From: Eledone cirrhosa
Taxonomy: Eukaryota
Direction: 5' to 3'
DNA length: 64,000 nt
Assembly: GCA_964016885.1 (NCBI GenBank)
Contig: OZ024743.1
Span: forward strand, 30,814,001 to 30,878,000
In this document: positions 3,001 to 53,315 of the stretch, in pieces
Position numbering within the stretch: position 1 is the first letter of the stretch
Layout: each line of letters begins with the position of its first letter
Notes under the pieces: generated by a model
What the model was told of the DNA's origin: nothing
Databases searched by the model: none
What the model saw: the letters and a program-made list of their open reading frames with translations, nothing else
Position numbers and translations under genes: made by a program

Positions 3001-3892
3001 TAGTTGGTCAGTTGCACTCTATTCAACGCTGTTACAAGTCAGTTGACAATGTTACAGACTTTGATCAAGTGCCCAACTTCCCAACAGAGTTTCTTAACTC
3101 AAAAGATCCTCCAGGACTATCCTGCTACGTAATGTAACTCCCCCCTTCTTTGTAATGGAACAAGACTGGTGGTAAAGCAACTGATGAACCTTGAATTGAG
3201 GCAGAAATAATCACAGGACGCGGGCGAAATGTATCTGTTTTTATTCCCAAAATTCCTTTTAACCCTTCTGATTGCCCATTTCCCATGAAAAGGTTACATT
3301 TCCCATTCAACCTTAGTCTTGAATGACCATAAACAAATCTGAAGGCCAATCTCTTAAAGTTATTGCACTGGATCTTCGAACACATTGCTTTTCACATGGT
3401 CAGTTTTACGTTGGCTGTTCTCGAGTTGGTAATCCTGACAACCAGTTTATGTATGCTCCTGACGGGAAACCCGAAAATGTTGTGTATAAATCTGCTTTTC
3501 AATAATCCAAAAGACAATGAGTGCTCCCAACCAACACCCACCTCTTTTTATAACGATTTTCTCATCCATCAGTTCCCCTCTGTTATGTCCAATCTGTATT
3601 GTTATTCCAACCTATGTACATAATAGTGTCTATTATTCACTTCACTTCTTTATTTCATGATGCGCTTTTACTGTTGTCAAAAGAATTTATACCTAGACTG
3701 GATTTCTGTCGTTACATGGGATAACGGATGACACCGAGCTCCCATATTAATTATTTCGCTGGAATAGTGCCAAAAGTTTTCATGTTTACATAAATTACAT
3801 TTTTCTTCTATGTATTCAAATTTACATTGTTTAGTTAAATGAGCTACATCGAAAGCTATTTGAACCGTCCAAAAGACGGGTACTTTAGGTAG
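1..3892 (+). mobile_element. Helitron (decayed Rep/PIF1-helicase), 5' end outside window
   Basis: Rep motifs YDALQYPLLFPYG and VEWQKRGLPHAHILLW; helicase motifs [10 protein letters not shown] (2289), [10 protein letters not shown] and MTINKSEGQSL...FSHGQFYVGCSRV. Many stops and frameshifts. 3' hairpin ccgtc-caaaa-gacgg (3865-3879) then GTAG|T (3889-3892) next to (TA)n. Confidence 0.93.
349..433 (+). other. 85-nt GT-AG intron inside Helitron Rep
   Basis: atgctaag|gtagta...cacttgcag|attgattcagaacga; removal restores MYAK-IDSERL in frame, matching DMAAKMESER in the second Helitron. Confidence 0.8.
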
Positions 3893-12803: not shown

Positions 12804-13380
12804 TCACATTCACGTAAATAACCACGTTTTACCGCTATCTGCATTAAAACAATTGCTTTTGTTGGAGCTTCCACAGTCCGTGGTGTTGTAGATGTAATTG
12901 TTGTTATTGATGCTATTGTGTTGTTTTTGTTGTTATTGATGTTGTTTCGGTGTTGTTGTTGTTGTCATTGCTACCGATGTAATTGTAGCAGTAATGGTTA
13001 CTTTATTTTATTCTTTGTATTTTCAGAACTACTTTTTTATTTGTTATCCATGTTTTCCGTCAGTCACTTTTATCTCCTGTCTTACTTTATATTTGTTCAT
13101 TTAATGTCTTAAATTTTTTTTATTTATTCGCGTTTCTAGTCTTTAAATGTAAGTTACTGTTTTATCTATCTTTCTTCCTTCCATTAAATCCATTTACATG
13201 TTTATATAAAGGGATCCCGTGATATTTTTTTTCAAAAATTAGATTGTTTCTTTGCCCAAATAAATTTGCATATATGATGAGACGTTGAGAAAATAGTGGG
13301 CCACTATCATTTCGATTGTTCTATGAGATGGTGGATATAGAAAGTAGTGCAAAATGCCAACATTGATACGATCCTGTTTA

Positions 13381-13420
<40 letters not shown>

Positions 13421-13521
13421 TATGTGAGTGTGTGTATTGTGTGTGTGTGTGTGTGTGTGTTTACATACATATATGCGTTTACATGTATGTATGTAAAAAC
13501 ACACACGCACACACACACACG

Positions 13522-13600
<79 letters not shown>

Positions 13601-13604
<4 letters not shown>

Positions 13605-14212
13605 TGAGATAAGCAGAACAAGCAAAATTCAAACAATTTTTGAAAATAAATTAAAAAATATAATTTAAATATTTACCTACTCCAGTTGCTTTTACCGATC
13701 GGTTTCCCTTCACAAAACATTAGAAATCCATGGGGACCTCCAATGGAAAAGTCAAGATCATCAGAAAGCATTTTCCCTTCCTAGGACAAAAAGTCCCAGG
13801 AACGGCAAAATATATTGCCATCTGCTAGCTAGCAAAGGATCGAATGAGGCCAAAATTTGACCTGTACATGAACCAGTCCTTAGCAAAAGCGGAAGTAAAC
13901 ATAGACGTGTTGTCTACTCCACCACTAAAAATAGCAGCCAAATAGAACAGATTTGTTCTCTACATAACGGAGATATTAAATGAAGTTAATAAGCCCACGG
14001 GTACGAAGTACCCCTGGAAATATATAGGTTGTCTATGATACAGGGTTGTTCAATGGTATTAATTTGACACACCAGAATTATAATATTGAGATAAGCAGAA
14101 CAAGCAAAATTCAAACATTTTTTAACATAAATTAAAAAAATTATTTAAATATTTACCTACACCAGTTGCTTTTTCCGATCGGTTTCCCTAAACAAAACAT
14201 TAGAAATCCATG

Positions 14213-14215
<3 letters not shown>
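13601..14215 (-). mobile_element. Retrozyme-like repeat: ~1.27 copies of a 482-bp HHR monomer
   Basis: 13604-13733 recurs at 14086-14215 (period 482); no ORF; (TA)n on both sides; HHR at 13687-13770. Confidence 0.7.
13687..13770 (-). ncRNA. Hammerhead ribozyme (type I, GUA site)
   Basis: tgcttt CUGAUGA tctt...aagg GAAA ccgatcgg UA aaagca; 6-bp stem I, palindromic stem III. Confidence 0.85.
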
Positions 14216-14272
<57 letters not shown>

Positions 14273-20423: not shown

Positions 20424-23400
20424 CGTTTCTGAATTTGTTTAGCAAGATTCTTTATCTGAAATCGTGTGTAGAAACCGATATTGTTATACTTTGGGAGGGT
20501 CATGTTGTCAATAAGAAACACACGCACCACATGTTTCACTTCAATTTATTATAATAAATTTATAAATTTAGGAATTTATAATTTTTTGGTTGGTTGGTTG
20601 GTTCCACAACCAGATAGTTGTTTATATATTGTCAAAGTTCCTTCGTCACACATTATGTGACCTCTTCAGTGACTGGGGATTATTTTCTTTTTTTTGTGCT
20701 TCTCCTTTGTTCTGTCCTACGCCATTTTGTTTCTGTGTGTGTGTTGTGTGCTCAGTCTGCGCATGCGCCACATCCGGGTGTCTGTGTGTGTTTATATTTG
20801 TTTATTTATTTGTTTATTTACATGTTGCCGGTTGGTTGTTTGTTCTATGTGTGTGTGTGTTTTCATTTTGTCCTTAATTGTAAGTTGTGATGTTGCTGTT
20901 CCACTCATATTTTCTATTTAATTTTGGTTGTAATTCTTTTACGTTTATTGCCTCTGTGATTTGTCTAAACATTGCGTCTTTTCTGTGTGTAGATTCTATT
21001 TTTATTTCTATGTGCTCTAATTTACCCTTATGTTCTATTTTAGCATGTTGGTAGAGTACAGATGATTCTTTACTATCTTGAAGGTCTCGCCAGTGTTCAT
21101 TTATCCGTTCCCCTACACTACGAGCTGTCTCACCTATGTACACTATATTTTTTGTCTCTACATTGTCCTTCAGTACATCTTATGCTATACACGACATTTC
21201 TAGTTTTACAGTTAATATGGGGGCTTATTTTACAGGTTATACATTTCTTATCTATACATGATGGTCTTTGAAAAGGGTTTGTCTTGCTAATAAGTGTTTT
21301 TACGGAGGTACCTGGTCTTTCTACTATCTTAATATTGAGTTATGTTTATCTAGGGCCCTTCTAAATTTGTAAGCTAATTCACCTCTAGGGGTTGTATCGA
21401 TGAACATTACACTCTGGTATTTATTGCTATCATACCATGAGTTTATTCTATCAGCCTTGTTCTTAGTTCTTTCTATTCTATTCCAAAATTTGCTCCTATA
21501 CAAGGGACAGGTCCCATTTGTGTCATTATTTACCATTTTTTCCCATTTGGTTCTGGCTCCTCTATACACCCTGATTCTATCTCTCTGATTGTAACCAGAG
21601 AACTGCATACGGTTGATGAAGTGTTGTATCTGTCTCTCTAGTTCTTCGGGGTTTCACATGCGTGACACGTTTCTCATCACCCGTACCAAATCCGCAATCA
21701 GTATGTTGATTTTGGTATGGTCCGACACAGCCGAGTTTCGGTGGATTAGATGTTTGGAAGTCATGGGTTTGGCATAATGGGAATGGAGGATTTGTTTTTT
21801 GTTATTAATGGTATCTAACCAGAGCTCTGTGTCTAGTACAGGTAATCGATGGTTGGGGTGTTTACTTGGGTAGTCTATAGTAACTCTAATACTCTGGTGG
21901 ATGGAGTTAGCTATTTGCTGGATGCTTTCCATTGTGTTTTTCTCTAGTTCCTGACTGTTCTCTAGTGGGGGTGTCTTAACTACGATGTTTATATCGTCAA
22001 CGTAGCGGGAGTACATTATCAGGGTTAAGGGGTCTTCTAATTGTTCTTTAAGTTTATGTTTAAGTCTACTGTCCCACCATACCATGAATAAGTTAGCTAT
22101 GTCGCCTGCAATGCTAACACCAATGGCTGCTCCTTCCTCTTGGGCATATGTTTTTCCATTAAATTTGAACATATGTTCCTTAAGGGTTAGTTTTATGCTG
22201 GCCCCTACCGCATGTGCAATCATTTTCTTCAGTTCATCGTGGTTTTCGGGTGTCCGTATGGCTCTGGTCCACCCGTTCCATCTATCTGTGTGGGTTTTCT
22301 TGGCCATTGACGTAATGGTAGGTGGTCTGCCTCTTGCTGGTCTTGTAGGGCACAGGTTGCTAAGGTCATATGTGTCTAGGTAATTATTACTATAGGTAAG
22401 TTTAAGTAGGAGTCCCAGCTCACTGGTATCATTCCCACGGAACTCAACATTGCTCTCACTGATCATTTCTACGCATTTCTCCACAGCAAAATCCACGTCA
22501 ATAGATGGATACAGGGACACAACATCCATTACTACCTATTATGCAGTTTGTTAGGTCCCTAGATCGGTTACTCTCGCCAATTCAACTGAGGAGGTACTCG
22601 GTGCTGTCACATACATCTGGGGACATTTCAATGATGGGGCGTATGATCAGGGAGAGGAAGTAGGACAGTCTGTTTTTACTAGCAATGTTAGCCCCACAGA
22701 CTGGCCGTGTTGGTGGTCCCGTGACAGGGTCACTGCCCGTTTTATGGTCTTTTCGAAGCCCATACGTCATTATTCCAGGCCTGGAAGTTGTTGGCACTCC
22801 TTTTGTTGGGCTGCATTATATTCGTCCACATCACCATATGAGCATTGAGGGCTTTTTCTCTATCCTCATGCTCCTGTGGTGTTACCTCCCTTGTGTTAGT
22901 GATGTGGGGTTGCATTGCCTGGGTGTAGTTTGGCAGGCTGTCAACCGACATTCTGCCAGACTTGTTTGTTGGAAAGCATGCTATCTCTCCATTACGTGAG
23001 CGCTGCATGAGCTTACGCAAGCCATTTGCAGATTTTTCTCCCAGTTGCTGGGCCTCCATTCTATTATGCTTCTTTCCATACTGTTCTATAATATTTCTAA
23101 GTTCGGATTTAGCTATACTAAATTGTGCTTCTGTTTGTTCATCGACCTGCGACGACAATTGCGTGGGTTTGTTAAATGGTAAGGTCGTGGCGTGGTCTCG
23201 TTGCTGGTCAAACGACTTATCGGAGGGATTATAAAATGTAGAGTTCCAGGCTAATGCTTTATGTGTACTAGTGCTATTGTTATTGTTAGTCGTGTTGTTT
23301 CTATTTCTATTTCTATTTCTATTTCCACCAACAGCCTCATGGTTGTTTCTATGTCTCTCATAATTACTCCTGTCTCTTTCCACTGGCTCATTGTTATTAT

Positions 23401-23480
23401 GCAACCCCGAAGAACTAGAGAGACACATACAACACTTCATCCACCGTATGCAGTTCATGACCCTCCCAAAGTATAACAAT
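20421..23480 (-). mobile_element. Penelope-like element (RT plus GIY-YIG), frameshifted
   Basis: RT motifs DVVSLYPSI, QEEGAAIG, YSRYVDD, LPVLD (21654-22529); GIY-YIG YIGETARSVGERINEH (20874-21143); pseudo-LTR 20421-20870; (TA)n flanks. Confidence 0.93.
20631..20673 (-). ncRNA. HHR motif in PLE pseudo-LTR (A15.1 to G)
   Basis: gtca CUGAAGA g-gtcaca-taatg-tgtgac GAAG gaac UU tgac. Confidence 0.65.
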
Positions 23481-23493
23481 ATATATATATATG

Positions 23494-23935
<442 letters not shown>

Positions 23936-25384: not shown

Positions 25385-28300
25385 ATATACTTATCTATAA
25401 AAGGCAGATTGTTGTTGTGTGTGCGTGCGTGCATGCTCCATGTTTATACATTTGCACAATTTCAAACCGATTCGACTCAAAATGTATAAGAATTTTGTAA
25501 ATTGTCAAATGTAGGTCAACGACTATTTATTTATTTCAAAATCACCCACAAATACGGAAATAATCCATAAAACTAATACATGACGCTTTAACCATCTCAT
25601 AGAATCTGATTACCTCTCTCCACTCCCCTTAAAAATCGAAAAAAAAATACATGCTGCACCCTTCTCTTATATACGCTTATAAACCCACTCCTTACTAATT
25701 TCCTTTAGAGAGAGAGAGAAAAAAATAAAGGGGAGAGCCAGAGAGGGAGAGACAGAGACAAACGTTAAATACATGACGCTTTACCCCTCTAATACAAAAC
25801 AAACCCTTCACCAAACTTCACCATTGTCATCGATGCTGACAAAAGGCCTTCTGGGGAGCACGCACGCCGTTTTAACGCTCCTTCGTGCAATGAAGTGGCT
25901 GTATTTATCCATGGTGAACAGCACAATAAGCGAGACATAGTTCTTCAAAGCCGTGAGAGTGGTCTTCGAAGTATTAATGAGACACATCGTTCATACCACG
26001 CCCTGCAGTATCCCCTTCTTATTGTATACGGAGAAGCCGGGTACCATTTGGCATTCCTCAGCGCAAACCAAACGAGCCCACTGCTGCGACGTCGAAAACT
26101 GTTTCATGTATGGCTTTATACTCATACCGCTTCATGACGAGGCCTAACGATTTCAGCCCCCTGCACAGGTCACAGGAACTGTTTCACCAGTTTGCAGTTG
26201 ACATGGCTGCAAAGATGGAGTCGGAGAGACTGTGCTTCATAAAATAGAATCAGAAGCAGCTGCGCTCAGACTCCTACATCCATTTGCGTGACGGCATCAG
26301 GAATGACACTGACCCCCGGAACATAGGCAAAATGTGCATTCTCCCCTCAACCTATACGGGGGGTGGCGCGGTACATGCACGAGTGCACACAGGACGCTAT
26401 GACGTACGTTCGGCATTATGGGCGCCCCGATTTATTCATCACGTTTACGTATAACCCCAAATGGGTTGAGGTTACGCGGGAACTTATCCCAGGGCAGTAG
26501 TACTGCCATCGGCATGATATTCTTGCCAGGGTTTTCAGGCAGGAGCTGTCTAAGCTAATTGATCTAATAAAAAAAGGGAAGGTTTTCGGGCCTGTTAGGT
26601 GCCACATGTATACTGTTGAGTGGCAGAAGGGAGGGTGGCCGCACGGGAACATTTTGGTTTGGTTGGTCACTAAAATATACCCTACAGTTCTAGATGACGT
26701 CATCGCATCGGAAATACCGGAAGCCGTTGTTGACCGGCAGCTGTACGACATTGTGAAGACACAAATGGTGCACGGTCCGTGCGGTCCCGGTTTTCAAGAG
26801 TTCTACTCATACCACAAGGACCCTGTGTGCACTAAACGATACCCAAAGAGGTTTGTTGAGGAGACCGGCCTCAACGGATACCCATTGTACAGACGAAGGC
26901 GGCCTGAGAACGGTGGATTCACTATGACGCTACGGGGTCATCAAGTTGATAATAGGTGGGTTGTCCCGTACTGTCCATTTCTGATGAAAACTTTCAATGC
27001 TCATAGAAATGTGGGGTTCTGTCATTCAGTGAAGTCGATAAAGTACATATGTAAATATGTTAACAAGGGTTCCGATGCTGCTATGTTCGGCCTTCAAAAC
27101 GACAATAGCCGGGACGAGGTCTCAGAGTTCTTGGCAGGACGATATATCAGCGGCGGTGAAGCTTTTTGGCAGATATTCGGGTTTCCACTTCGCAAAAGGC
27201 ACCCCGCCATCATACAACTAGCGGCTCATTTGGAAAACGGCCAGAGGTCTTACTTTATTGTACAGACTGCTGCTCATTTGGCGGCCAATCCAAAAGAAAC
27301 AACTTTGACTGTTTTTTTACGCTTTGCCAACTTGACACATTTGCAAAAGACTTTCATATCCGCAGGTCCCGTCCTACTACGTGTGGTCAAACAACACATG
27401 GGCGCGTAGGAAATCAGGTTAGGATGTTGAAGTACATCCTGGTGTCAAGTTTGACAGTTGTCTAGGAAGAGTGTACACTGTACCTCCCAACCAGCATGTG
27501 TGTTTTCACCTGCGCCTTCTTCTCCATTAGGTTTCTTGGCCCACAAAGCTTTCGAGACATAAGAAATGTTTATGGTGAATTATGTGGTACTTTCCGGGAA
27601 GCCTCCTTTTGGAGGATGATTCACAATTGGTCGCCACTCTGGCAGAGGGCGTTTTGTTGAAATCTCCTAAAAGAATAAGATCGCTCTTCGTTATTCTACT
27701 CCTATGGAGCGACTTGGGTGATCCGGCCTCTTTGTGGCTTAGCTGCAAATATTACATGTCTGAAGATTTCCTGCGTCACGCTCAGTTGCTAAACCCATCG
27801 ATGGAGGTCGGGTACTGTGACCTCATTTACAACAGGGCGCTGCTTGAAATCGAAGATACTGTTCTCGATGTGGGCGGTGTATGGCCTACCTTCCACAAAC
27901 CAGGAAGGCGCAAACACTCTGTCTTCGCATTTGCTGCGTTAGACATCTTATAATGTTGAGGAGCTTACCCTGTACATAGCGGAGAATGAGCCAAAGCTCC
28001 TTCCAGAACAGAAATTCGCTTACATATCCGTTGTTAATTCTGTCCGGGACAAAGCTGGGGAGATCTTTTTCCTGGACGCTCCTGGGGGAACTGGGAACAC
28101 TTTTGTCACCAAATTAATATTAGCTGAGATTAGGCGAACAGAAGGCATTGCCTTAGCTGTGGCATCATCTGGAATTGCGGATACTTTGTTGCCGGGCGGC
28201 AGGACAGCTCACTCATATTTCAAGCTCCCGCTTGATTAGCGAAGACTAAGACACCCACTTGCATTAACAGTAGACCTCGGATCAGGCAGAAGTGTTCAGA

Positions 28301-30091
28301 CGATGCAAGCTTATCGTTTGGAACGAATGCACGATGGCCCACAGAGGTGCCCTTGAGGCGCTAGATAGAACTCTGAGAGACATCAAAGACTCTACGGCTC
28401 CCATGGAAGGCATAACACTTCTTCTTTCAGAGAACTTCAGGCAAACGCTTCCCGTTATTCCCAAGGCGACTAGAGCTGATGCAGTACGTGCGTGTCTTAA
28501 GTCATCCGCATTGTGGCCCCTGGTGAAGACTCTGAAACTCCACAATAACATGCGTGCTCATATGCGAGGTGATATCGCATCAGAAGCATTTTCTCACACC
28601 CTTCTTGCACTTGGCGAACGCCAAACGCTCGGGGATGAAAAGGGTAATATTGCCATCGACTCACTTTGTACCGTTGTTAGTACGCCTTCTGATCTCAGGG
28701 ATGCAGTGTCCCAGATCTGAAAGCAAATTATCAGAATATCGATTGGCTTGCCCAAAGGGCTATTCTGGACCCGAGGAATAAAACTGTTAACCATATTAAT
28801 GATCATTCCTGGGGATGGCTACGTATATGTCTATCGATAGAACTCCTGACCCCAAGGACTATCCAATAGAGTTACTAAATTCCTTTGAGCCTCCCGGATT
28901 ACCTCCACATATTTTGAAACTTAAAGTCTCAAAATTTGGTTCCGCCGAAACAATGCAATGGCACACATTTGGTCGTTAAGTCCTTAGCTCCCAATCTGAT
29001 TGAGGCAACGATAATCACAGGGTGCGGTTGGGTCAAGGTTGTGCTCATACCGAGGATTGATCATTTCCCATCAGGAGCAGACCTACCTTTCACATCCCGG
29101 TCAGGCCATGCTTCGAAATGTCAATTAAAAAAGCGCAGGGGCAGACACTGTCTGTCGCGGGAATATATTTCGGGGGAGCCGTGTTTCTCTCATGGTCAGC
29201 TTTATGTTGGCTGCTCGCGTATCGGCAGCAAGAGTGATGATTTCGCGTTCGTTTCGCAAGGAAAAACAAAAAACATTGTGTACAAGGAGGTTTTATAGGA
29301 TTACGTCCTAATTTTAAAACGTTTTTATTTTTTTATTTTCTAAGTAGGTTAACCTTCACTGCAGTGCACTGGATACTCCGCAACATGGGTCGTACAAAGG
29401 CTGATTCTCGCGGCATTACAAAGCTTCGTTGCAACTCCGACCCTACTCAAATATCACGCGTTTCTCCTCACCAACCCCCGTTTGGTGGGCCTCAGAGGAC
29501 CGTCGACAGGTTAGTATTTCACATCCGTACGACTGTCAAAAGGTGAACAATGCTTTAATGACGGGATTTACATTTTTAGGCGGTTCCCTGCAATTACTTC
29601 ACACTTCACCAACACCTGGCCTCCGCTCAGCTCTATTTCCATCCCTCCGTCGGCACAGCAGCAGGCTTATCTTTTGCGTCCGACGTACATGATGCACCAA
29701 ACATACAATGACCCCACTTCCTCTTTGTTGGTTGTCATAATTCGACAATGTTTTCAGGCCGCTGTTTGCGGTTACCTCATTCCACCCCGTCCCCCGTTAA
29801 AACATTTCATGCAGAACAACTCCATCGCAGATATGTTGTTCGGCTGGCATCGTCTACGCGCGTGTTGCGCAAGTACTGTGAAACAATAAATTTCAACACT
29901 TCTTTGCACAGAGATAATACCAATAGGCGAAACTACAATTGTCACTGCTGGCGCAGCTCCTACTTCGGCAGCCCAGGTCTGCAATTCATTCAACCAGTGC
30001 CTGGCAGACAAAAAGTGCTGCCATAAAATGGGTGGTACAACCTAACTTTGGTAACATACTGAGCCCGAGCAACGCCGGGCTTTAATGTTAG
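25385..30091 (+). mobile_element. Helitron (decayed Rep/helicase), second family, both ends present
   Basis: HARRFNAP (25859), YHALQYPLL, VEWQKGGWPHG, KSIKYICKYVNKG, DAPGGTG, FSHGQLYVGCSR. 3' hairpin gcccg-agcaacgc-cgggc (30063-30080) then TTAG|T. 5' tctataaaaggcag near 25394. Confidence 0.93.
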
Positions 30092-31754
30092 TATATATAT
30101 GCTCAATCACCTCCCTAATATGCCACTTTCTGAACAAACCCTCCTAGTAACGTTCGATGTAGTCAACCTATACCCCAACATCCCCCACAACCTAGGAATA
30201 GAAGCTATCCAATTCTGGCTGGATAATTACCACAATGAACTTCCACAACGAATCAAAAAATAATTCGTGATAGAGGGACTCAAATTTATTTTGGAGAACA
30301 ATTACTTCGTTTTCAATAACAAACCCTACAGGCAGAAATCTGGGACCGCTATGGGAACGAAAAGAACCCCCACTTATGCCAACCTAGTCATGGGATACCT
30401 GGAAATGACCCTCTACACTAAAGTTCTAAACAAATTTGGAAACACTCTCCACTTACACATAGAAAGGAACTGGAAGCGATATCTAGATGACTGCTTCATC
30501 CTTTGGCACGAAAACATCGAGAAACTTAAATAATTTCACACCCTTATAAATGGGCTCAACACGAATATTAACTTCACGATGGAATACAGCCATCAACAAC
30601 TCCCCTTCCTCGACATCCTCATTAAGATCCATAACAAAAAAATAGAAACAGTCATATACTACAAACTCACAGACTCCAAGCAATATCTTCCTTTCAACTC
30701 TTGCCACCCTAGACACGTTAACATTAATATTCCCTACAACTTAACCAAGAGAATCTGTACTATAGTCTCCAATAAAAACACCTGCTACTTACGGCTACAA
30801 GAACTAAAGGACACACTCATAGGTAGGGACTACCCTGCATCACTAATTGACAATGGAATCCAACGTGCCCTAAAATTCAGTACCCAGGACCTTAGACACC
30901 CTAAAGTAAATCAACCGAAACTAAAAGCTCTTCCATACATCTCCACACACAACCCCCCCAACAATGAGGCCTTTGACACCATCCTCCAGAACATCCGTGT
31001 TGAAAAAGGACCATAGAATGAACCAAATCCTACGAACACACGATATCATAAAGAGCAAAAGACAATCTAAGTCAATGGAAAAGATCCTAACACATGCCAA
31101 AGTACTGCCAACCACAACAACGAAACCCACAGTAAAAAAATGCGATAGACCCAACTGTGGCATTTGCATCAACCTAATAGAGGGTTCGGAATTCTATTTC
31201 AAAGAAGGACAACGTTTTATAGTAAAACACAATTTCACATATGCATCGGAAAATCTAATATATGTATTAACTTGCTCAGGTTGTCGAGAACAATACATAG
31301 GCCAGACCAAAAACAGCCTCCGCCAACGCATGACTGCCCATAGATCCCAAATTAAAATACGGGAATACAGGAAAATTCTACTGAGTGAACATATTGATAC
31401 CTGTGCCGCCCAAAATCATCCCATCTTCAGAATCTTTCCCCTCTACAAATTTAAAGATAATGCCACCCACACCTAGCGCATCAGCAAATAATCTTACTTT
31501 ATTAACAAATACGGACCCCGTCTAAACACTTCTCCCTAAGACGAACCCACAACATACACACGTCAGCATACATATCTACATCAGCACACATCTCTACCCA
31601 CATATAAACACAATGACATACGTAAACACACATGTTCTATTATGCAACACAAATATACACCAATTTGCATACCTTTTGATGTCTATAGATATAAACGTGC
31701 CGACACACACACATACATAAACGCACACATGCATTGCACAGTGATGGGCACATA

Positions 31755-33172: not shown

Positions 33173-36100
33173 AATATCTTTAAGTCGTTTGGAAGCCTCG
33201 ACAATGCAAATGGGTAAATCTCCGGGTAACAAGATCCGGTGGTGGAGAGAGAGATGTAATTGGGTGTACGTTGAGATGCGTGGTGTGTATAAGATGTGTA
33301 GAAGAATGAAGGGAAGAGTATAAAGGATAAAATAAAAATAACAACACAAGAGAGAGTTACCTTGGGAGAGATTTAATAGTCCCTATATATTTCGGATTCA
33401 CATCCATCAACTGGGGTTTTTTCCGGGGTGGGGGAAAGGTTGTCTGTCGGACAGGTGCGAAACGCGTCCTCCGCTGTTTGTTGTTTTGAATATCTGAGGT
33501 ATTCGGCAGAGCGCTCGTGCGCGTGAAATGGGGTCGGTCGGGCAGAGGTCAGCGGCTGAATGAGGGAGTGGGGTGGCGCTAGCTGTCATCCATTCTCTGC
33601 CTGTTTGTTAAATGTTACTGTGTGTGTGTGTGCGTGTGTTGTTGCCTCGCTTGAGTGTGTGTGTGTGTGCGTGTGTTGTCTCGTTCCTCTGTATTGGCAG
33701 TGTAGTATGTTCGTATGGTGGAATGCTACTGTGTGTGTGTGTAGTTCTCTCGTTTGTGTGTGCGTGTGCGTGTGTTGTGTGTTGCTGCATCGTTTGTTAA
33801 CTTAAACCAGCCATCTCATTTCGCTTCTCTCTGATCGGTTGTTTATTTGCGGTTGCAGGCGTTTGATTAAAAGCGCTTCCCTGATACGTAACGTGCCGAT
33901 TTTTCTTTCAGTCGCTAGAATTGTGACAATGGGCCTTCCGTCTTTGTTTCCGCATTTGTCTATGTGTTTCCGGAAAGACGAGGCCCTGGTTTTAGTATGT
34001 TCCTGGATCCTCTATCTTATACACGACGTATGTGCGTAGGCAACAGTTCGCATGGCGTATCGGGCAGTCTCTGAGGGAGAATGCGTCAGTAGATTTCCCG
34101 GGTTTCCTGGAGCGGCATCTTTACAGGGAGGGGCCCGAGTGGGCCAGGTGGATGTCGAGGCCCTCCCTCCGTATAGCGTTGCGGATAGCGTTGGTGGTAT
34201 TCTCGCCCAGGTGTGGCATTTTAAGGAAGCACTTGCCTTGGGTTCCTCTCTGTCTCTTGTGTCTGGTGTCTCCTATTCTGTCTGTGATCGAGGTAGGGTA
34301 CCCGTTTGTCTCCAGCACCTCGATGAATCGCTTGGTATGAGTGACACCACCCGCGGGATCGCTGCATCTGTTTTTGATTCGCGCGATCTCGTTAGTGATG
34401 TATCCTCTGTTGGCAATGTTAGGGAGGGCGGACTTATAGTGAACGAATAGGTCCCTGCAGGCTGCCTTTCGGTAGAAGTTGCAGTGAACCCTTCCATGTT
34501 CCGTGATGTTGATTCGGAAGTCGAGGAGGGCAAGTGACCCGTCTTCGTTGGGGTGTTCAACACTGAAGTCAATGTTCTCGTTCGTGTTGTTGAACGTCTC
34601 ATAGTTTCTGTTCGCCGTGTCTTGGGAAGATGTGAGGATGAGGATATCGTCCACGTACCTTGAGAAAAAGTCTACGGCGTTGGGGTGGCAGGCGTTGAGT
34701 GACTTGCGTTCGAGGTTGTCCATGTAAGAGATCGCTAGCACACCTGATAGGCTTGATCCCATGGGCAATCCCGAGGTTTGTTGGTATGTTTGGTCAAGGA
34801 ATCCGAAGTAGGTGTTGTCGACGACGATGGATAGGAGTTGGTGGATGTCAGTGGTGGTGAGCCCGAATCAGTGTAGGTCGGTGGATTGGACGCGTTCCAT
34901 CAGTATATTGACGGCCGGGAGTGCCGGGACCGAGGTGTAGAGAGCGACTACATCAAGGCTGAAGGCATATCTGTTATTCCTTCTGGTGTCGGGATCCATT
35001 TGATGCAGGCACTTCAACACCTCCTCGGAGCTGTTAACGTGTCCCGGCAAGGTGTCTAAGATGGGTTTGAGTATTCTGGCTAGGAGCCATGAAATTTTGT
35101 AGAGTGGTCCCTCCACGCTCGATACGATGGGCCTGATCTTCAGGTCGGGTCCCTGTTTGTGTGTTTTCACGAGGTGGTAGAAGGCGGGTAGTCTGCTGTT
35201 CCTCGTGAGGAGGTTGTATCTCAGCTTCTTCGGGAGCTTCCGCCGGTCGCAGATGTTGGTCCAGGCATCGTTGATGAGCTCTTCTATCTGCGCGGGAGTG
35301 ATTCCCGTGACCTTGGAGTAGAGGTTGTCATCGTCAAGGTGTTGGAGGGCCAGGGTGTTGTAGGCCTCTCTGCTGATGACGCAGAATTATTTTCCCTTGT
35401 TGGAGGGGAGATAGATGAGGTTCTTCGATTTTAGGTTGGAGAGAGTGGTGAGTTTAGATTTGGTGAGGTTATGTGTTTGTGTGTGTGTGTGTGTTTGTGA
35501 AGTATATCCGAGATGGAGTGTTTTAGCCTGATGAGTTTAGTGTCGAGTTCGTGGTTGGTGGGTGGGGGGCGGAGTGGGGTGTCGGGCTGGTAAGTGGGGA
35601 ACTTGGGATGGGTTGCGTGGGCGCTGTTATTTTCTGTGGCGCTGTTGATGGCGGTCACCCATTTAAGTTGGTAAGCGGCTCGACAAAAGTTGGCCTCGAT
35701 GTTGAGTTTGAGTCTGTCTTCGAGACGTTGTGAGACGATGAACTTGGGTGCGAGGTGTAGGAGTTTCAGCTCGTCGCTCGTGAGAGTGCCGGTTAGGTCG
35801 GTGACCAGGTGCGTCCCATCGTTGAGGTATGGCTCGGTGTTGGTGGATGCGGCGGTGGCGGTTGTTAAGTTGTTGTTTGCCACGTGGTTCTGGTCCGTCT
35901 GTTCGTTAGTGTCGATGTTCTCGTTGTGGCGTTTCGACAAGATCCACTCATATTTTCGCTTGTGCCGTTTTTTCTGGTATTGCACTCTGGAGTGGTAGCA
36001 CTGGTCGATTGCTTTAGTGATTTTCAGGAGCAAGTCCCCGGGTTCTATTGGCAGTCGATGTGTCCTGTCTGAGAGTGTCCGCTTATGGACGTGTAATTGG

Positions 36101-36255
36101 CGGTTGAGATGTCTCAGGATCTGTTTAATACACGTGCGATGTATGCGGTTAGTGGTGTTTTGCAAAGCTGGTGTACGTAGGCTTACTGGTAAGTGGATGT
36201 TCCTGATGTTGTTGGGGATGACATCGTTTTTTAGGCAGCGTTTCAGGAAAATAAT
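33170..36255 (-). mobile_element. GC-rich PLE, decayed
   Basis: KTHK..IRPIVS, SLDVVALYTSVP, GLPMGS, SRYVDD, LALLD; endonuclease CPI..CC..VVYKI with the YIG segment deleted, then RIQEH...REALLIKRLQPQIN; decayed HHR at 33380-33416. Confidence 0.92.
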
Positions 36256-36259
36256 ATAC

Positions 36260-36331
<72 letters not shown>

Positions 36332-42161: not shown

Positions 42162-42239
42162 AATATGTTTATATATATATAAATATGTATATATATATAT
42201 GTATGTATATATATATATGTATGTATATATATATATATG

Positions 42240-42326
<87 letters not shown>

Positions 42327-42330
<4 letters not shown>

Positions 42331-44670
42331 AACAAATTTGGTTTTAGAACGTGTAAAAACCCACCCACTAACCCACTATTAGATGCATTTGAGCAGGACC
42401 TTATGGACTTAATCCTTAAAATTAAATTCAAAGGACGTAACACCAAGAACAAACTGCAGAAAGATATGAAAAAACTACTGGACGACCTTAAAAACACCAA
42501 AGGAATTGTAGTAAAAGCGGACAAAACATCTAACCTGTATACTATGGACTGCACTACATACAACAACTTCATTCGAAAAGAATTACATAAAAAATATAGA
42601 AAACCGAATGAAGTAACTCTTAAGCACATTAATGATGAGGCATGAGAAATGGTGAAAAATCTCGGAATCGAAGATAGGACAGGACCACTCTTACCGGCGG
42701 TACCCACCTTCAATCTTAAGGACCATAAGCTTAACTTTGATAATGACCCTAAAATTAGATTAATCTGCCCCTCTAAATCAGATATAGGTAAAATAAGCCA
42801 ATATATCTTAGATAGAATCATCCCCCAAATTAAGGCTAAGGTTAAAATTAAACTCTGGGTGAAGACCCAAGAAGCAATAAGATGGTTTAATAGCATTAGC
42901 AATAAGAATAAATCTAAGTTTATCCAGTTTGATATCGACGAATATTACTCATCGATATCACCTGAAACTCTGAATAGAGCCATTAAGTTTGCTAAGGATA
43001 ACTCTGACCTTACAAACGAAGAAATTAAGATTATATTAGAAGCTAGGAAAACTATAGTCAAATTTGAGAACAGTTATTGGGTTCGTAAAGATAGACCCTC
43101 TAACTATGACATAACAATGGGCTCTAACGATTCGGCGGAAATAACTGATATTGTGGGGTTATTTATCGCCTTTAGACTTCAGGAAAAATTCAGTAATCTC
43201 CACGGTGGAATATACCGCGACGATGTTCTCCTCCTAGTTAAAAACCTAAATAACCAAAAACTAGAAAAACTACGCAAATATATAAGAAAACTACTACTTG
43301 AAATAGGACTAACTATAACATATGAATACAACCTTAAAGTATTTAACTTCCTGGATGTCACACTCAATTTAAACTCTGGTCTGATTAAACCGTTTCATAA
43401 CTTGAATGAAAATCTCAAGTACGTAAATGTTGGGTCTAACCACCCCATCTCTATAATTAAATCTATCCCTAAAAATATTTCCCTTAGAATCTCGGGTCTA
43501 TCTTCTAACATACAAGTATTTAAGGAACACGCCGAGTACTACGATAGCGCCCTTAATAAAGCAGGCTACCTCAGCAAAATAGAGTATATAGATGAAAACA
43601 ATCAAAACACCCAAAATAAATCCCACATAGGTAGATATAATAACACAACACAAAACCACACTTACTACCATAGTATACACAGCAGTAAACCAGCAAACAA
43701 AGCTAATAGAAAGCGATGCAAAGAGTACTTATGGTATAACCCTGAATACAATAGTTCCATTAGTACAAATTTACCAGTACTCTTCTTTAAAATAGTTAAG
43801 AGACATTTTCCTACATCACACAAATACCACAAAATCCTAAACCCTACCACTATAAGACTGTCATACTCTACAGCGTTAAACCTTGAACAACACATAAAAA
43901 AGATCAATACTAGAAGGTTAAACGAAAAGACTAAAAACTTAAGTACAAAGAACACAAAAAAGACAGTAGACAATACACTACAGAACATAAATAAACCACT
44001 CCTAAGTTCGTCCGCAATACTACTCCAGAGTAAACCTAACTACAAAACCAACGTACACAACTGTAACTGCATCTATCCTGACAATTGCCCCCTCGGCAAT
44101 AACTGCCTTGAAAAAAATATCATCTATAAGTGTACCATTGAATCCGGAGGCAACGAGTGGTATTACGTGGGATCAACGGCAACATCGTTTAAATCTCGAT
44201 TATATAGGCATTCTTACTCAATAAAACACCAGAGCCAAAGAAATGTAACAACTTTAGCAGAAAAAGCTTGGACGCTCAGGGATAGCGATCAAAAGTTTAC
44301 CCCAAAATGGGAGAAATTAGCTAAAACCCAAAGCTTTTCCAGGAGCCAAAACTTCTGCAAATTGTGTAATCGTGAGATTTATTACATAATCACACACAAG
44401 AAGAAACTGCTTAATAACAGAATTGAACGAACATTATTCTGCCGTCACCGAACTAAAACCCTTTTTTTCCCACTACAAGCTGAATATTACATAAAAGAGG
44501 GACATCCCCCAACTATATAAACCTCAATCTAGTTAGAAAAATATAAAAACAATCTCTTCTCAACATATATATGTATATTAATAACCTTAAATTACCACAC
44601 TAATAATGGATAGATAGGCTGATGAGAATAGGTGTTAATATGCTATAATGAATGCGTCTAAAAGCGACCA
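42327..44670 (+). mobile_element. PLE with near-intact ORF (one stop at 42643), YRDD-type RT plus GIY-YIG
   Basis: [39 protein letters not shown]; CNC..CPL..CL linker; IIYKC..YYVGST..FKSRLYRH; decayed HHR at 44612-44662. Clade (possibly Nematis-type) is tentative. Confidence 0.93.
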
Positions 44671-48261: not shown

Positions 48262-51227
48262 TAAATCTCTAGGATCACAAAAACAATTTTCGCACTGAAC
48301 TACCTGTTAGATTAATCGCCCCCTCTAAATCTGATCTGGGGGTTGTTAGTAAAGCCATCTTGGATAGGATTATCCCACAGGTTAGTTCTAATTGCTCTTC
48401 TTTAAACCTAAATTTATGGTTTGGTACTTTTGAAGTGATTGGCTGGTTCAACAAATTGGATAATAAAAACAAACTAAAATTTATTCAATTTGATATTGCC
48501 AGCTACTATTCCTCCATTTCGCCTTCACTTCTCAATAATGCTCTATCTTTCGCACTTAAATATTCTGACATCACCACAGATGAACTTCACATCATCCTCA
48601 CCGCACGTAAAACCATCCTAGAGTTCAACAACGAATATTGGACCAGAGCCGATACCTCTAACAACTTCGACATCACAATGGGAGCATCCGATTCATCCCA
48701 ATTGACTGATTTAATTGGTATCTTCATTTTGAACTCTTTGAGTCGGAAAATTCCTCAACTTCGCGGTGGAATTTATCGTAACGATGGACTCTTTACTATC
48801 CTAAATTGCAATATAGTTAAACTTAATATTATTAAGAACAATATACGTAATCTCTTTAACCAACATAACCTAAAAATTGAATTTGATAATAGTATCAAAC
48901 TAGCTAATTTCTTGGATGTATCTCTTAATCTTGACACTGGACTATATTACCCTTACCATAAAAACAATGAGAACCTTAATTATGTTAACTTTAAATCTAA
49001 CCATCCTACCAATATCATGAATGCTATAGTTAATAATATTGGAAATAGAATATCTAACATATCTTCTAATAAAAACATCTTTGATGCTAACGCCAATTAC
49101 TATAATAACGCACTTTCTAAAGCCGGCTATCCAGATAAAATCAAATATAATAAAGAAACAAATTCTAGGAAAACTTACAGTAGAATAATTAATCATGACC
49201 ATTCCAATAATTTTAATAAAAGACCTAGATACAAAAACATAATCTGGTATAATGCTCCTTTCTCCATCTCTATTAATAACAATATTCCTAAATTATTTTT
49301 TAGTGCCTTAAATAAATGCTTCCCTCCCTCACATATCTATAGTAAAATATTTAACAAACACACCATCAAATTTTCGTATTCTACATCCTCCAATATTTCC
49401 AACATCATCTCTAAACACAACAACAACATATTAAATACTAAATCTCTTCCTTCCAATATTGAATTTCATAATAAGAGTAATAGTACTCCCGACGTCATTG
49501 TAAACCCTAGGCTAACTTCTGTAAACCCAAATACAACGTCAAACACAACTTCGCTAAATGTTCATAATCCAACTCTAAATCAAGAAACTATTATTCCTAT
49601 TATTCCTATCGCAAACAACTTCTCCAATCCAATTCCTTCTATAGATAACACTAGATCACTCATTAATAATCTCTCTAATTGCAACTGCCGCATTAAAAAT
49701 AAATGTCCTCTCAACAACCATTGCCTCGATAAAAACTTAATTTATGAATGTAAAATTATAACTAGCACCAATTCCTTCACCTATTTTGGCTCCACTTCCA
49801 CCTCTTTTAAAGCTCGTCTCTATAATCATCATCATCTTTCAAATACAAACTTAAAAGAACTAACACTGCTCTCTCAGAACTCATATGGTCCTTAAAAGAC
49901 AAAAACATTAAATATACCATCTTTTGGAAGAAGACTTCTTCTGCATCCTCATACTTGAACAGCTCTCTATCTAAAATCTGTGATCTCTGCCTAAATGAAA
50001 AATTTACCATTATCTCTAACCTAGATTCTATAATAAATAGACGCTCAGATTTGTTTTCTATCTGCCTGCATAAATTCCATAGAACTTTTCACAAAGTATA
50101 CAGTTAATATTCAATTCTTTATCAATTTAGAATCTTTTCTCAAAGGCACATATACATACACCTCTTTAAAATATACCCATCTACCTTACTTTAAAGGGCA
50201 TTATACACTCTATAATACTCGTTTACTCATTACCCTCATTCTATCTTCTCGTAAAATAATAACATTTGTTTTTGACATTTTGAATATTCATCCGCAATCA
50301 TTATTATTTTTTCTCTCTATCATAAATCTTTTTAATCTCAATTTCATCCTTAATTTATTATTATTTTTTTCTCCCCGTCAACGAACTCATTATTAATACA
50401 TATTAACTCTTTATTCGCTCATATTATCAATTCAATATACAAACTTTAACTTCACATTATTTTTCTCAAATCCTTCTACACACAAACCTTAACAATTTTT
50501 CTCTTCGCTAATTTTGAAATTGCCACAATACATACATTTCTTCTTTTGACGTTAGAATATTCACCCACAATTATTATTTTTTTCTCTCTATCTTCATACA
50601 TAATTTCCCTTCGTTAATTTTCAAATTCCTTTAATTTATACATTATCTTCCAACGGTTCCCAACCTCTCTAAATTAAAACAATATATGTTTTTCTCAGTT
50701 ATAAAAACTATCTCTTTCTCTCTATCACCCATCTCTCCCTCTCCACCCTCACTCTCATCTCCTCCCCCTTTTTTTCATCCTGTCCAACCCCCCCCCCTCC
50801 CTAAATAATTTTTTTTTTTTTTCTTTTTTTCCTCGCACATATCCTCCCTTCGTTAATTTTCAAATTTTTTAATTTATACAGTATCTTCCAACGGTTTTCA
50901 ACCCCTCTATGTAAAAAATATATCTCCTCTCAGTTATAAAAACTATCTCTTTCTCTCTATCACCCATCTCTCCCTCTCATCTCCTTCCCTTTTCATCCTT
51001 CCCCCCCCTCTCTAAATAAAATATTTTTCCCAATATCACACATCAATCTAAAACTACTTTTCATATGTTGATTTAAAACTGCACTATCCACAAGTGTTGT
51101 TTAGCCTTCATATCATGTTCTCCTGTTTTATCTGATGAAAACACAAATATTATTGCTTGATGATGATGTTTGTTTTTGAAATGCGCATAATAAAATATAT
51201 GGAACTCCTTTAACCATCTTTTGATCT

Positions 51228-51230
<3 letters not shown>
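48262..51230 (+). mobile_element. 5'-truncated PLE related to the 42327 element, long internally duplicated 3' region
   Basis: DHKNNF..RLIAPSKSDLG, QFDIASYYSSI, DITMGA, YRND (catalytic D lost), CNCRIKNKCPL, YFGST; frameshift near 49830; ~240-bp duplication at 50606 and 50847. Confidence 0.92.
51124..51197 (+). ncRNA. Hammerhead ribozyme in PLE 3' pseudo-LTR
   Basis: tgttttat CUGAUGA aaacacaaata...tgtttgttttt GAAA tgcgca UA ataaaata. Confidence 0.85.
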
Positions 51231-51291
<61 letters not shown>

Positions 51292-51590
51292 TATAGAGTT
51301 AAGCATGTCCAGATAATTATTTCATAATATATATACATCATTTCTACTCCCAATCAGCATAATTAACCACACAAAAAATCAATTAGACCAGGCTATAAGA
51401 ATAAAACGCGTCTATGAAGAATCAGTAAATAAATGCGCCACTACGGCGTCTTCGCGTGCAACCACTATAGAATACTTACCCAACATTTCAACAGCACGTG
51501 GAAATTAATTAAATATACGGTCAACCATACATAATTAGGTAAAAATTAATGTTAGAAATGCTTATATACATACCAGGATTAAATTACTAA

Positions 51591-51669
51591 ATCCCGACCC
51601 AAGGGTTTCGCTCACTTTTCAGATACCTTATTAACGTTAATACCCGAGTTTTAGAGCTCTTCAGGGGAC
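51591..51669 (-). ncRNA. Hammerhead ribozyme (GUC site), left arm
   Basis: gtccc CUGAAGA gctct...agtgagc GAAA cccttggg UC gggat. Confidence 0.88.
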
Positions 51670-52381
51670 AAATTCGCTAGGACATATTATTTTCCGAAGT
51701 GGCCCCCGCCAAACACGAATTCAAAATGGTAGAGAACTGTGACATGGCAGTGGTCAAGTCAGGAGGGGTGTGATTGGTTGCTTACGGCGAGTGGGTTGGT
51801 TGCTAGAAAGCGCAGCCCAATATCGCCCAAATGTTTATCTCAACCTTATGGGAGATTATTAAATATAAATATTTACACATACACCAATTAAACAAAGTCA
51901 CAGGTTTATATGTGTTTTGGCAACTTTTCACGGGGTGGCTCAATGGAGAATTAATAAATTAAATAATCAGAGCAAAATGGTATAGCGTAAAGCATGTCCA
52001 GAGAATTATTTGATAATATATATACATCATCTCCACTCCCAATCAGCAGAATTAACCACACAAAAAATCAAGTATTTTGCTCTCATTATGTAATTTATTA
52101 ATTCTCCATTGAGCCACATCGTGAAAAGTTGCCAACAGACACATATACCCGTGACTTTGTTTAATTGGTGTATGTGTACATATTTATATTTAATAATCTC
52201 CCATAAGTTTGAGATAAACATTTGGGCGATATTCGCTGCGCTCTCTAGCAAACCACCCACTCGCCGTAAGTAACCAATCACACCCTTCCTGACTTGACCA
52301 CTGCCACGTCACAGTTCTCAACCATTTTGGATTCGTGTTTGGTGGGGGCCACTTCGGAAAATAATATGACCTAGCGAGTTT

Positions 52382-52461
52382 GTCCCCTGAAGAGCTCTAA
52401 ATCTTGAGAATTAACCTTTAATAACGTATCTCAAAAGAGAGCGAAACCCTTGGGTCGGGAT
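52382..52461 (+). ncRNA. Hammerhead ribozyme (GUC site), right arm
   Basis: gtccc CUGAAGA gctct...agagc GAAA cccttggg UC gggat; canonical core, all three stems pair. Confidence 0.9.
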
Positions 52462-52871
52462 TTAGTGATTTAATCCTGCTATGTATATAAGCATTTCTAA
52501 CATTAATGTTTAACTAATTATGTATGGTTGACCGTATATTTAATTAATTTCAACGTGCTATTGAAATGCTGGGTAAATATTCTATAGCGGTTGCACGCGA
52601 AGACGCCGCGATGGTGTATTTAGTTACTGTTTCTCCATGGATGCCTTTTATTCTTATAGCCTGGTCTCATTGATTTTTTGTGTCGTTAATTATGCTGATT
52701 GGGACTAGAGATGATATGTATTTATTATCAAATAATTCTCTGGACATGATTTACTCTATAGTACTTTGCTCTGATTATTTAATTTATTAATTCTCCATTG
52801 AGCCACATCGTGAAAAGTTGCCAAAACATATATATACATGTGACTTTGTTTAATTGGCGTACGTGTAAATA

Positions 52872-52919
<48 letters not shown>

Positions 52920-52920
52920 C

Positions 52921-53315
<395 letters not shown>

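What the first reader, a model, noticed from the sequence alone, without database searches (positions are those of the whole stretch)
51291..52880. 689-nt hammerhead monomer inserted as two divergent, differently permuted, longer-than-unit copies: candidate large retrozyme circular RNA
Seen: each arm is one 689-bp ORF-less unit plus a ~90-120 bp terminal redundancy, with one canonical GUC HHR. The arms read outward from 52071/52072 and start at different points of the unit. The 3' end of the left arm (ctctatag|ta) maps to the point where the right arm starts. Known: non-LTR retrozymes of corals, mussels and axolotl are HHR tandem repeats that make circRNAs, with monomers of a few hundred nt, and are thought to use PLE machinery. 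Inference: this is reverse transcription more than once around a circular RNA, with a monomer larger than those I know of.
Basis: partly seen in the sequence, partly recalled or inferred. Interest (0 to 1): 0.88.

Follow-up and report, generated by a model that had tools for sequence, protein, structure and literature searches.

The report
Penelope-type hammerhead repeat, two-primer insertion
This is one of several hundred copies of a protein-free jumping repeat that carries a predicted self-cutting RNA; its copies end at two fixed sites (one per mirror-image arm) and often start at the predicted cut site, which suggests that a borrowed Penelope-type enzyme likely copies cut, linear RNA from both sides of a DNA break, while the proposed RNA circle remains unproven.

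Summary
The anatomy is real: two head-to-head arms (1.14 and 1.18 copies of a 689-nt ORF-less unit, ~91% alike), each with a type I hammerhead, between (TA)n runs. It is one insertion of a dispersed family (~700 segments). The 'different permutation' is not random. 3' ends are fixed at two sites 117 nt apart (A, B), and all 66 of 66 intact inverted pairs have one A and one B end. That is the published Penelope-like (PLE) footprint: an inverted arm with a one-sided tail. 5' ends vary but pile up at the hammerhead cut site (15 of 259 arms, 2.4 expected), and a 485-nt sister family shows both rules. The two arms share source haplotypes, yet in 21 of 52 pairs neither arm contains the other, against simple fold-back. 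Best reading: a non-autonomous PLE derivative (retrozyme type) copied by two-sided priming on largely linear, cut RNA. A circle is neither shown nor excluded; no RNA run or partner enzyme was found. The monomer size is within the published range (51-972 bp), and the circle idea is published. The scan noted similar families in this genome before.

The parts
51228..51290 (.). (TA)n target run on the left; it is also the 3' end of a Hydra-clade-like PLE, so the insertion is nested in that run
51289..52071 (-). Left arm, 1.14 units, 5' start at unit 599, 3' end at fixed site A (no tail)
51591..51669 (-). Predicted type I hammerhead of the left arm; GUC cut between 51596 and 51595
52071..52072 (.). 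Head-to-head junction of the two arms' 5' ends (the 3' ends of the two inferred cDNAs)
52072..52880 (+). Right arm, 1.18 units, 5' start at unit 1, 3' end at fixed site B (carries the tail)
52072..52760 (+). One full 689-nt ORF-less unit (family majority length 687)
52382..52461 (+). Predicted type I hammerhead of the right arm; GUC cut after 52456; the family's 5'-end hotspot is the next base
52753..52764 (+). Site A (TA-like stretch), the usual 3' end of the family; read through in this arm
52764..52880 (+). ~117-nt tail between sites A and B; the only part homologous to the 485-nt sister family (62% over 149 nt, E 1e-8)
52881..53054 (.). (TA)n target run on the right

Best explanation
This is one insertion of a dispersed, protein-free hammerhead repeat whose copies end at two fixed TA-like sites, and it was likely written into a (TA)n run by a borrowed Penelope-like reverse transcriptase/endonuclease that primed from both sides of the break on RNA that was probably linear and partly self-cut. 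Shown by the copies: fixed ends A and B, one per arm; (TA)n targets; shared source haplotype of the two arms; a 5'-end hotspot at the predicted cut site. Inferred steps: (1) a more-than-unit source copy is transcribed; (2) the hammerhead cuts part of the RNA; (3) the enzyme cuts both strands of (TA)n; (4) one 3' OH primes at A and the other at B; (5) each cDNA stops at random, at the cut 5' end, or runs on through an uncut, ligated or jumped junction, which gives the longer-than-unit arms; (6) the two cDNA ends are joined head-to-head. If only A primes, a solo A-ended copy results.
For: 66 of 86 divergent insertions end A+B; the other 20 have one end at neither site; none is AA or BB (200 insertions). 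In the pattern-sampled set, which would favour AA, it is 24 of 28 with 0 AA. Solo A 58 (29 with TA upstream) vs solo B 15 (1 with TA upstream), so B rarely stands alone intact. (TA)n follows 116 of 128 A ends and 73 of 81 B ends. 5' ends at 381-387: 15 of 259 arms vs 2.4 expected; 9 of 112 vs 1.0 in the unbiased set, the top window of ~680 scanned; five arms start exactly at base 384 and one more. The arms of one insertion differ at 20 of 281 diagnostic sites (shuffled mean 36%, minimum 25%) and share 39 rare variants (shuffled mean 3.8, maximum 12). In 21 of 52 simple pairs neither arm lies within the other. Sister family: 13 of 15 divergent insertions A+B, none AA/BB; 6 of 46 arms at its cut site vs 0.85 expected. 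A Poseidon PLE protein cuts and extends both strands, starts at two internal RNA sites that bound the tail, and is predicted to be a dimer (PMC11167929).
Against: No partner enzyme was found: no similarity to three abundant PLE ORF families or to 30 GIY-YIG loci. Cleavage is predicted, not measured; 8 of 9 Xenopus retrozyme dimers did not cleave in vitro, and cleavage was not needed for PAc insertion in vitro. Most arms that reach the cut site go on through it (39 of 112 unbiased arms cross it). RT stalling at the ribozyme fold could add to the hotspot, and a second hotspot at 398-410 (17 vs 5.2) fits TA microhomology instead. Gene conversion between arms could add to their shared variants. 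Two of the six sister-family hotspot arms (L248) were added by hand although their 3' ends are not A/B; without them it is 4 of 44. PAc primes without homology to the target, whereas A and B here are TA-like.
Confidence: 0.6

Rival explanations
1. Rolling-circle template: the hammerhead-cut monomer is ligated to a ~689-nt circle and a PLE enzyme, primed at A and B, copies more than once round it; this insertion came from such a circle.
For: Successive laps in one arm share haplotype (15 of 227 diagnostic sites differ). No long source array was seen: of all 88 exact matches to a 28-mer reading through B, only one pair lies one unit apart, yet L013 looks born as a 2.5-mer (34 of 35 three-copy differences are singletons). 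In the sister family L258 has 10.12 units with no substitution between them plus a 1.88-unit inverted arm, all sharing three variants absent from the other young copies compared. The majority unit folds better than shuffles as a circle (z -2.8, 25 shuffles). circRNAs are shown for coral, mussel and axolotl retrozymes (PMC7229834).
Against: A circle has no 5' end, yet 5' ends pile up at the cut site. The longest arm is 2.51 units. L003's extra unit bears the pattern of a later unequal crossover (0 of 349 two-copy columns differ; shared variants switch sides near 522-541), so multimers can arise in DNA. The window's own monomer folds no better than shuffles (z -0.12).
Confidence: 0.3
2. Fold-back self-priming: one cDNA (or an antisense template) folds back and is copied to make the inverted arm, as proposed for Adineta Penelope elements, and the tail arises by endonuclease resolution.
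For: Proposed from palindromic junctions in PMC3846280. A few junctions here are short perfect palindromes (L051), and the arms share haplotypes.
Against: In 21 of 52 simple pairs neither arm can be a copy of the other. The A arm reaches further upstream in 25 pairs and the B arm in 24, and arm lengths are uncorrelated (rho -0.11, P 0.44).
Confidence: 0.07
3. Ordinary pseudo-LTR debris: 5'-truncated 3' ends of an autonomous PLE, with the redundancy being its partial tandem.
For: The same insertion shape is typical of autonomous PLEs (PMC8557442).
Against: Arms that read through B continue into the same non-coding unit, never an ORF. Among 365 tail hits in 354 loci the nearby ORF pieces belong to different families and are mostly set off by (TA)n runs.
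Confidence: 0.03

Closest known systems
Metazoan non-LTR retrozymes (Cervera and de la Pena 2020, PMC7229834; Li, Clavereau, Pollet 2026, bioRxiv 10.64898/2026.07.22.740005)
   Same: ORF-less unit with a type I hammerhead, head-to-tail when longer than one unit, low GC, size inside the 51-972 bp range, coexisting with PLEs and proposed to be PLE-mobilised.
   Different: Mostly dispersed sub-monomer copies (median 0.43 unit) instead of tandem arrays; a hammerhead with a long helix II extension; fixed A/B ends and inverted pairs, which I did not see described in the parts of these papers I read; no RNA or circle shown here.
EN+ Penelope-like element insertion footprint (Craig et al. 2021, PMC8557442; Arkhipova et al. 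2013, PMC3846280; Schostak et al. 2008, PMC2377424)
   Same: 5' truncation, partial tandems, an adjacent inverted 5'-truncated copy, a tail at one end only, (TA)n targets and a hammerhead (the last two are typical of the Hydra clade).
   Different: No RT or GIY-YIG ORF; the tail is ~117 nt rather than 30-40; no autonomous parent was found.
Poseidon PAc of Anolis, in vitro mechanism (Frangieh et al. 2024, PMC11167929)
   Same: Two internal RT start sites downstream of the hammerhead that bound the tail; AT-rich target; both strands cut and extended.
   Different: There the start site did not differ between strands, priming was without homology, and no reads ended at the cut site. Here the two sites are strictly split between the arms, both are TA-like, and genomic 5' ends mark the cut site.
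L1 twin priming (recalled, from no call)
   Same: Head-to-head inversion made by two primers from one break.
   Different: The second site is fixed, and the two arms often cover the same part of the unit, including pairs whose B arm already reaches the cut 5' end.

Membership tests
Non-LTR retrozyme | Type I hammerhead in the unit | tested here: met
   Core, three helices and compensatory changes; structure predicted only
Non-LTR retrozyme | No protein coding, no LTR/PBS/PPT | tested here: met
   Longest stop-free frame 79 aa; PBS/PPT not searched separately
Non-LTR retrozyme | Tandem of at least two hammerhead-bearing units ('active' in Li et al. 2026) | tested here: inconclusive
   Not met at this locus (one hammerhead per arm); 7 of 209 family arms cross the cut site twice; no long array among 88 exact matches
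Non-LTR retrozyme | Self-cleavage of the RNA | not testable with these tools
   Indirect only: 5'-end hotspot at the predicted cut site
Non-LTR retrozyme | Expression as monomeric linear and circular RNA | not testable with these tools
Non-autonomous PLE derivative | Inverted 5'-truncated copy joined head-to-head | tested here: met
   86 of 200 insertions divergent
Non-autonomous PLE derivative | Tail at one end only | tested here: met
   66 of 66 intact pairs A+B; the tail is ~117 nt
Non-autonomous PLE derivative | Microsatellite/(TA)n insertion bias | tested here: met
   189 of 209 A/B ends followed by TA-rich sequence
Non-autonomous PLE derivative | Homology to the pseudo-LTR of an autonomous PLE | tested here: inconclusive
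   None in 94 PLE loci plus the window; only a few of the genome's PLE families were sampled
Autonomous PLE (pseudo-LTR fragment) | RT + GIY-YIG ORF in the repeating unit | tested here: not met
   Read-through copies close the unit without an ORF

The most novel reading that the evidence does not exclude
The copies record the missing steps of Penelope retrotransposition: a dimeric enzyme holds two hammerhead-cut RNAs from one source (possibly paired through the palindromic helix III loop), one subunit always priming at A and the other at B on opposite sides of a (TA)n break, with end-to-end jumping or ligated circles regenerating the more-than-unit copies (up to ten laps in the sister family). 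This would explain the inverted arm, the one-sided tail and the role of the hammerhead in one model.
Probability: 0.3. Interest if true: 0.72.

Novelty: new member of a known kind. Interest (0 to 1): 0.42.

Why it matters
How PLEs make their inverted arm and one-sided tail, what their hammerheads do, and whether retrozymes use PLE enzymes and circular templates are stated as open in PMC8557442, PMC11167929 and the 2026 retrozyme preprint. A short ORF-less family with hundreds of copies gives counts that bear on each: a strict A/B split between arms, independent copying of both arms from one source, and 5' ends at the scissile bond. It turns those questions into specific bench predictions. The element itself is an ordinary member of a known class, and the scan has noted similar families in this genome.

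Tried and rejected
RNA evidence: no RNA holder listed; three coded contig runs of one sample were laid on the unit and showed diverged relatives but no branch into an ORF. Partner search: three abundant PLE ORF families, 30 of 150 GIY-YIG matches and a tail profile over all 354 loci gave no partner. RNA-editing scar (lead from earlier scan notes): none here, A>G 8.0 vs T>C 7.4 per 1000 sites. A preferred 5' end in hammerhead loop II (335-348): 7 vs 4.2 expected, P 0.13, not kept, although both 2.5-mers start there. Free folding of the hammerhead regions gave z -0.95 and 0.10; the active fold lies 0.9-2.7 kcal/mol above the minimum. My working label 'Naiad' for two window ORFs was wrong (C-terminal endonuclease, CxCX5C in both, DKT upstream of one = Hydra clade). 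The bacterial promoter scan does not apply. A sequence look-up in earlier findings returned nothing. Rows dropped before counts: arms under 84% identity to the majority (older subfamily; 79% for the sister family), duplicates, and clusters touching a locus end. Literature searches for a twin-priming or cut-site account of PLE copies listed none, but only open-licence papers are searched.

Full report
Observation. The region 51289-52880 holds two arms that read outward from 52071/52072. With unit position 1 at 52072, the right arm is 1.18 copies and the left arm 1.14 copies of a 689-nt unit; they are about 91% identical, have no frame over 79 aa, and lie between (TA)n runs. Each arm has one type I hammerhead with an intact core, a GUC cut site, a long helix II extension and a short helix III. 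Rfam misses it at gathering score and gives a weak HH9 match on one arm. Compensatory changes against an older subfamily support the helices (4 of 12 pairs; 8 hand-picked sequences).

Family. The genome (3.0 Gb, animal; earlier scan notes call it octopus-type, which I did not test) gave 3611 first-look candidates and 485 exact matches to an 18-mer just upstream of site A. As 99 of 144 covering segments carry that 18-mer exactly, about 700 segments exist. I mapped 200 distinct insertions from loci gathered by length-biased BLAST, a tail query, a hammerhead pattern, a hammerhead-region query, the first 100 of the 485 pattern hits (86 insertions, the least biased set) and the not-yet-held loci among all 88 matches reading through site B. 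Copies average 95% identity to a 687-nt majority unit and fall into several haplotype groups. In the unbiased set the median arm is 0.43 unit and 14 of 112 arms exceed one unit. No long array appeared.

Fixed 3' ends. Arms end at site A (unit ~4) or site B (unit ~121), both TA-like and followed by (TA)n in 189 of 209 cases. Of 86 divergent insertions, 66 have one A and one B end, 20 have one end at neither site, and none has AA or BB. Solo copies are mostly A-ended (85 vs 15). In the first 153 insertions solo B copies almost never kept TA upstream (1 of 15, vs 29 of 58 for solo A), so they look like damaged pairs. This is the known PLE footprint: an inverted 5'-truncated copy and a tail often present at one end only (PMC8557442, passages; PMC3846280, passages; PMC2377424, passages). 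The abutment of the left arm's end with the right arm's start occurs in 3 of 52 simple pairs.

5' ends. The strongest stop window is the predicted cut site: 15 of 259 arms start at 381-387 against 2.4 expected, 9 of 112 against 1.0 in the unbiased set, and several start exactly at the first base of the 3' cleavage product with no TA microhomology. This suggests that hammerhead-cut linear RNA served as template (inference; stalling at the fold is the alternative). Still, 39 of 112 arms cross the site. Arms that reach the second hammerhead upstream stop there at least as often (10 of 14 vs 27 of 61, P 0.08), which a pure circle would not predict; the sample is small.

Origin of the two arms. They share subfamily alleles (20 of 281 differ; shuffled 36%) and rare variants (39 vs 3.8), so they come from one source, barring later conversion. 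In 21 of 52 simple pairs neither arm is contained in the other, and their lengths are independent. Simple fold-back copying (the model in PMC3846280) cannot give these. Two RNA-templated syntheses from the two sides of the break can, and this matches the Poseidon PAc protein, which cuts and extends both strands, starts at two internal sites bounding the tail and is predicted to dimerise (PMC11167929, parts 1-2 of 4; supplements not read). In pairs whose B arm starts at the cut site (L047, L050, L072, L132) the A arm overlaps it, so either two RNAs or displacement on one RNA is needed.

Sister family. A 485-nt unit shares only the tail region (62% over 149 nt), has 1181 exact matches to a degenerate tail motif that also catches older relatives, and follows the same rules: 13 of 15 divergent insertions A+B and a hotspot at its own cut site (6 of 46 arms, or 4 of 44 without L248). 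It includes L258, ten units with no substitution between them plus a 1.88-unit inverted arm. This is the best case for a circle, but local expansion cannot be excluded: L003 shows an unequal-crossover pattern, whereas L013 looks born as a 2.5-mer.

Partner and RNA. The window and genome are rich in PLEs, including Hydra-clade-like ORFs (PMC8557442 section 11), a clade with hammerheads and (TA)n targets. None sampled shares the tail or hammerhead, so the partner is unidentified; a PLE enzyme is inferred from the footprint. Expression and circularisation were not examined.

Comparison. It works like a PLE passenger and fits the non-LTR retrozyme definition except that tandem organisation is rare and RNA is untested. 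Monomers of 51-972 bp, averaging 650 bp in ray-finned fish, are reported (bioRxiv 10.64898/2026.07.22.740005, parts 1-3 of 5; its supplements could not be seen and may list comparable families). Circular templates for more-than-unit copies were proposed in PMC4209133 (passages) and PMC7229834 (passages, abstract, Discussion). L1 twin priming and end-to-end template jumping are recalled, not looked up. Earlier scan notes describe similar families in this genome; they are unchecked and not counted as support.

Verdict. Real; new member of a known kind; interest 0.42. Two-sided priming on largely linear cut RNA 0.6, circle for this insertion 0.3, fold-back 0.07, pseudo-LTR debris 0.03.

Noticed in passing
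L258 1528-7349 (G000:C1:149.205-149.211 Mb): Very young insertion of the 485-nt sister family: 10.12 units with no substitution between them (B end) plus a 1.88-unit inverted arm (A end) between (TA)n runs; best candidate for rolling-circle copying.
   Followed up: partly
window 13380-14250 (-): Another ORF-less hammerhead element, a little over one unit long, between (TA)n runs; it starts inside hammerhead loop II. Similar elements in L019 (two hammerheads 485 nt apart) and L183.
   Followed up: partly
window 48273-51228 (+): Hydra-clade-like PLE (540-aa frame, CxCX5C linker) with its own hammerhead at 51132 just before the (TA)n run that the studied element entered.
   Followed up: partly
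window 42163-44520 (+): Second Hydra-clade-like PLE (DKT, CxCX5C, C-terminal endonuclease-like motif), 624-aa frame; no Pfam hit.
   Followed up: partly
window 21654-23647 (-), 30534-31476 (+), 34121-36330 (-): Fragments of three abundant PLE families; two have near-identical copies with long frames (about 1240 aa and 784 aa) and look recently active. My scan found no canonical hammerhead tied to their ends.
   Followed up: partly
L003 929-2656: 2.5-unit copy whose extra unit bears the pattern of a later unequal crossover (switch near unit 522-541).
   Followed up: yes
L067, L105, L114, L162, L313, L317, L333: Older subfamily at 70-80% identity with a compensated hammerhead; it seems abundant among the laid contigs.
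   Followed up: partly
window 20230 (-): A further hammerhead motif of a type also seen in L008 and L086.
   Followed up: no
window 724-3137 and 26501-29298: Helitron Rep/helicase fragments (PF14214).
   Followed up: no
window 53085-53170 (+): Looks like a tRNA-derived SINE head after the (TA)n(AG)n run (impression from the sequence, not tested).
   Followed up: no
family unit 335-348: Both 2.5-unit copies and several 1.5-unit copies start in hammerhead loop II, a possible transcription start; not significant overall (P 0.13).
   Followed up: partly
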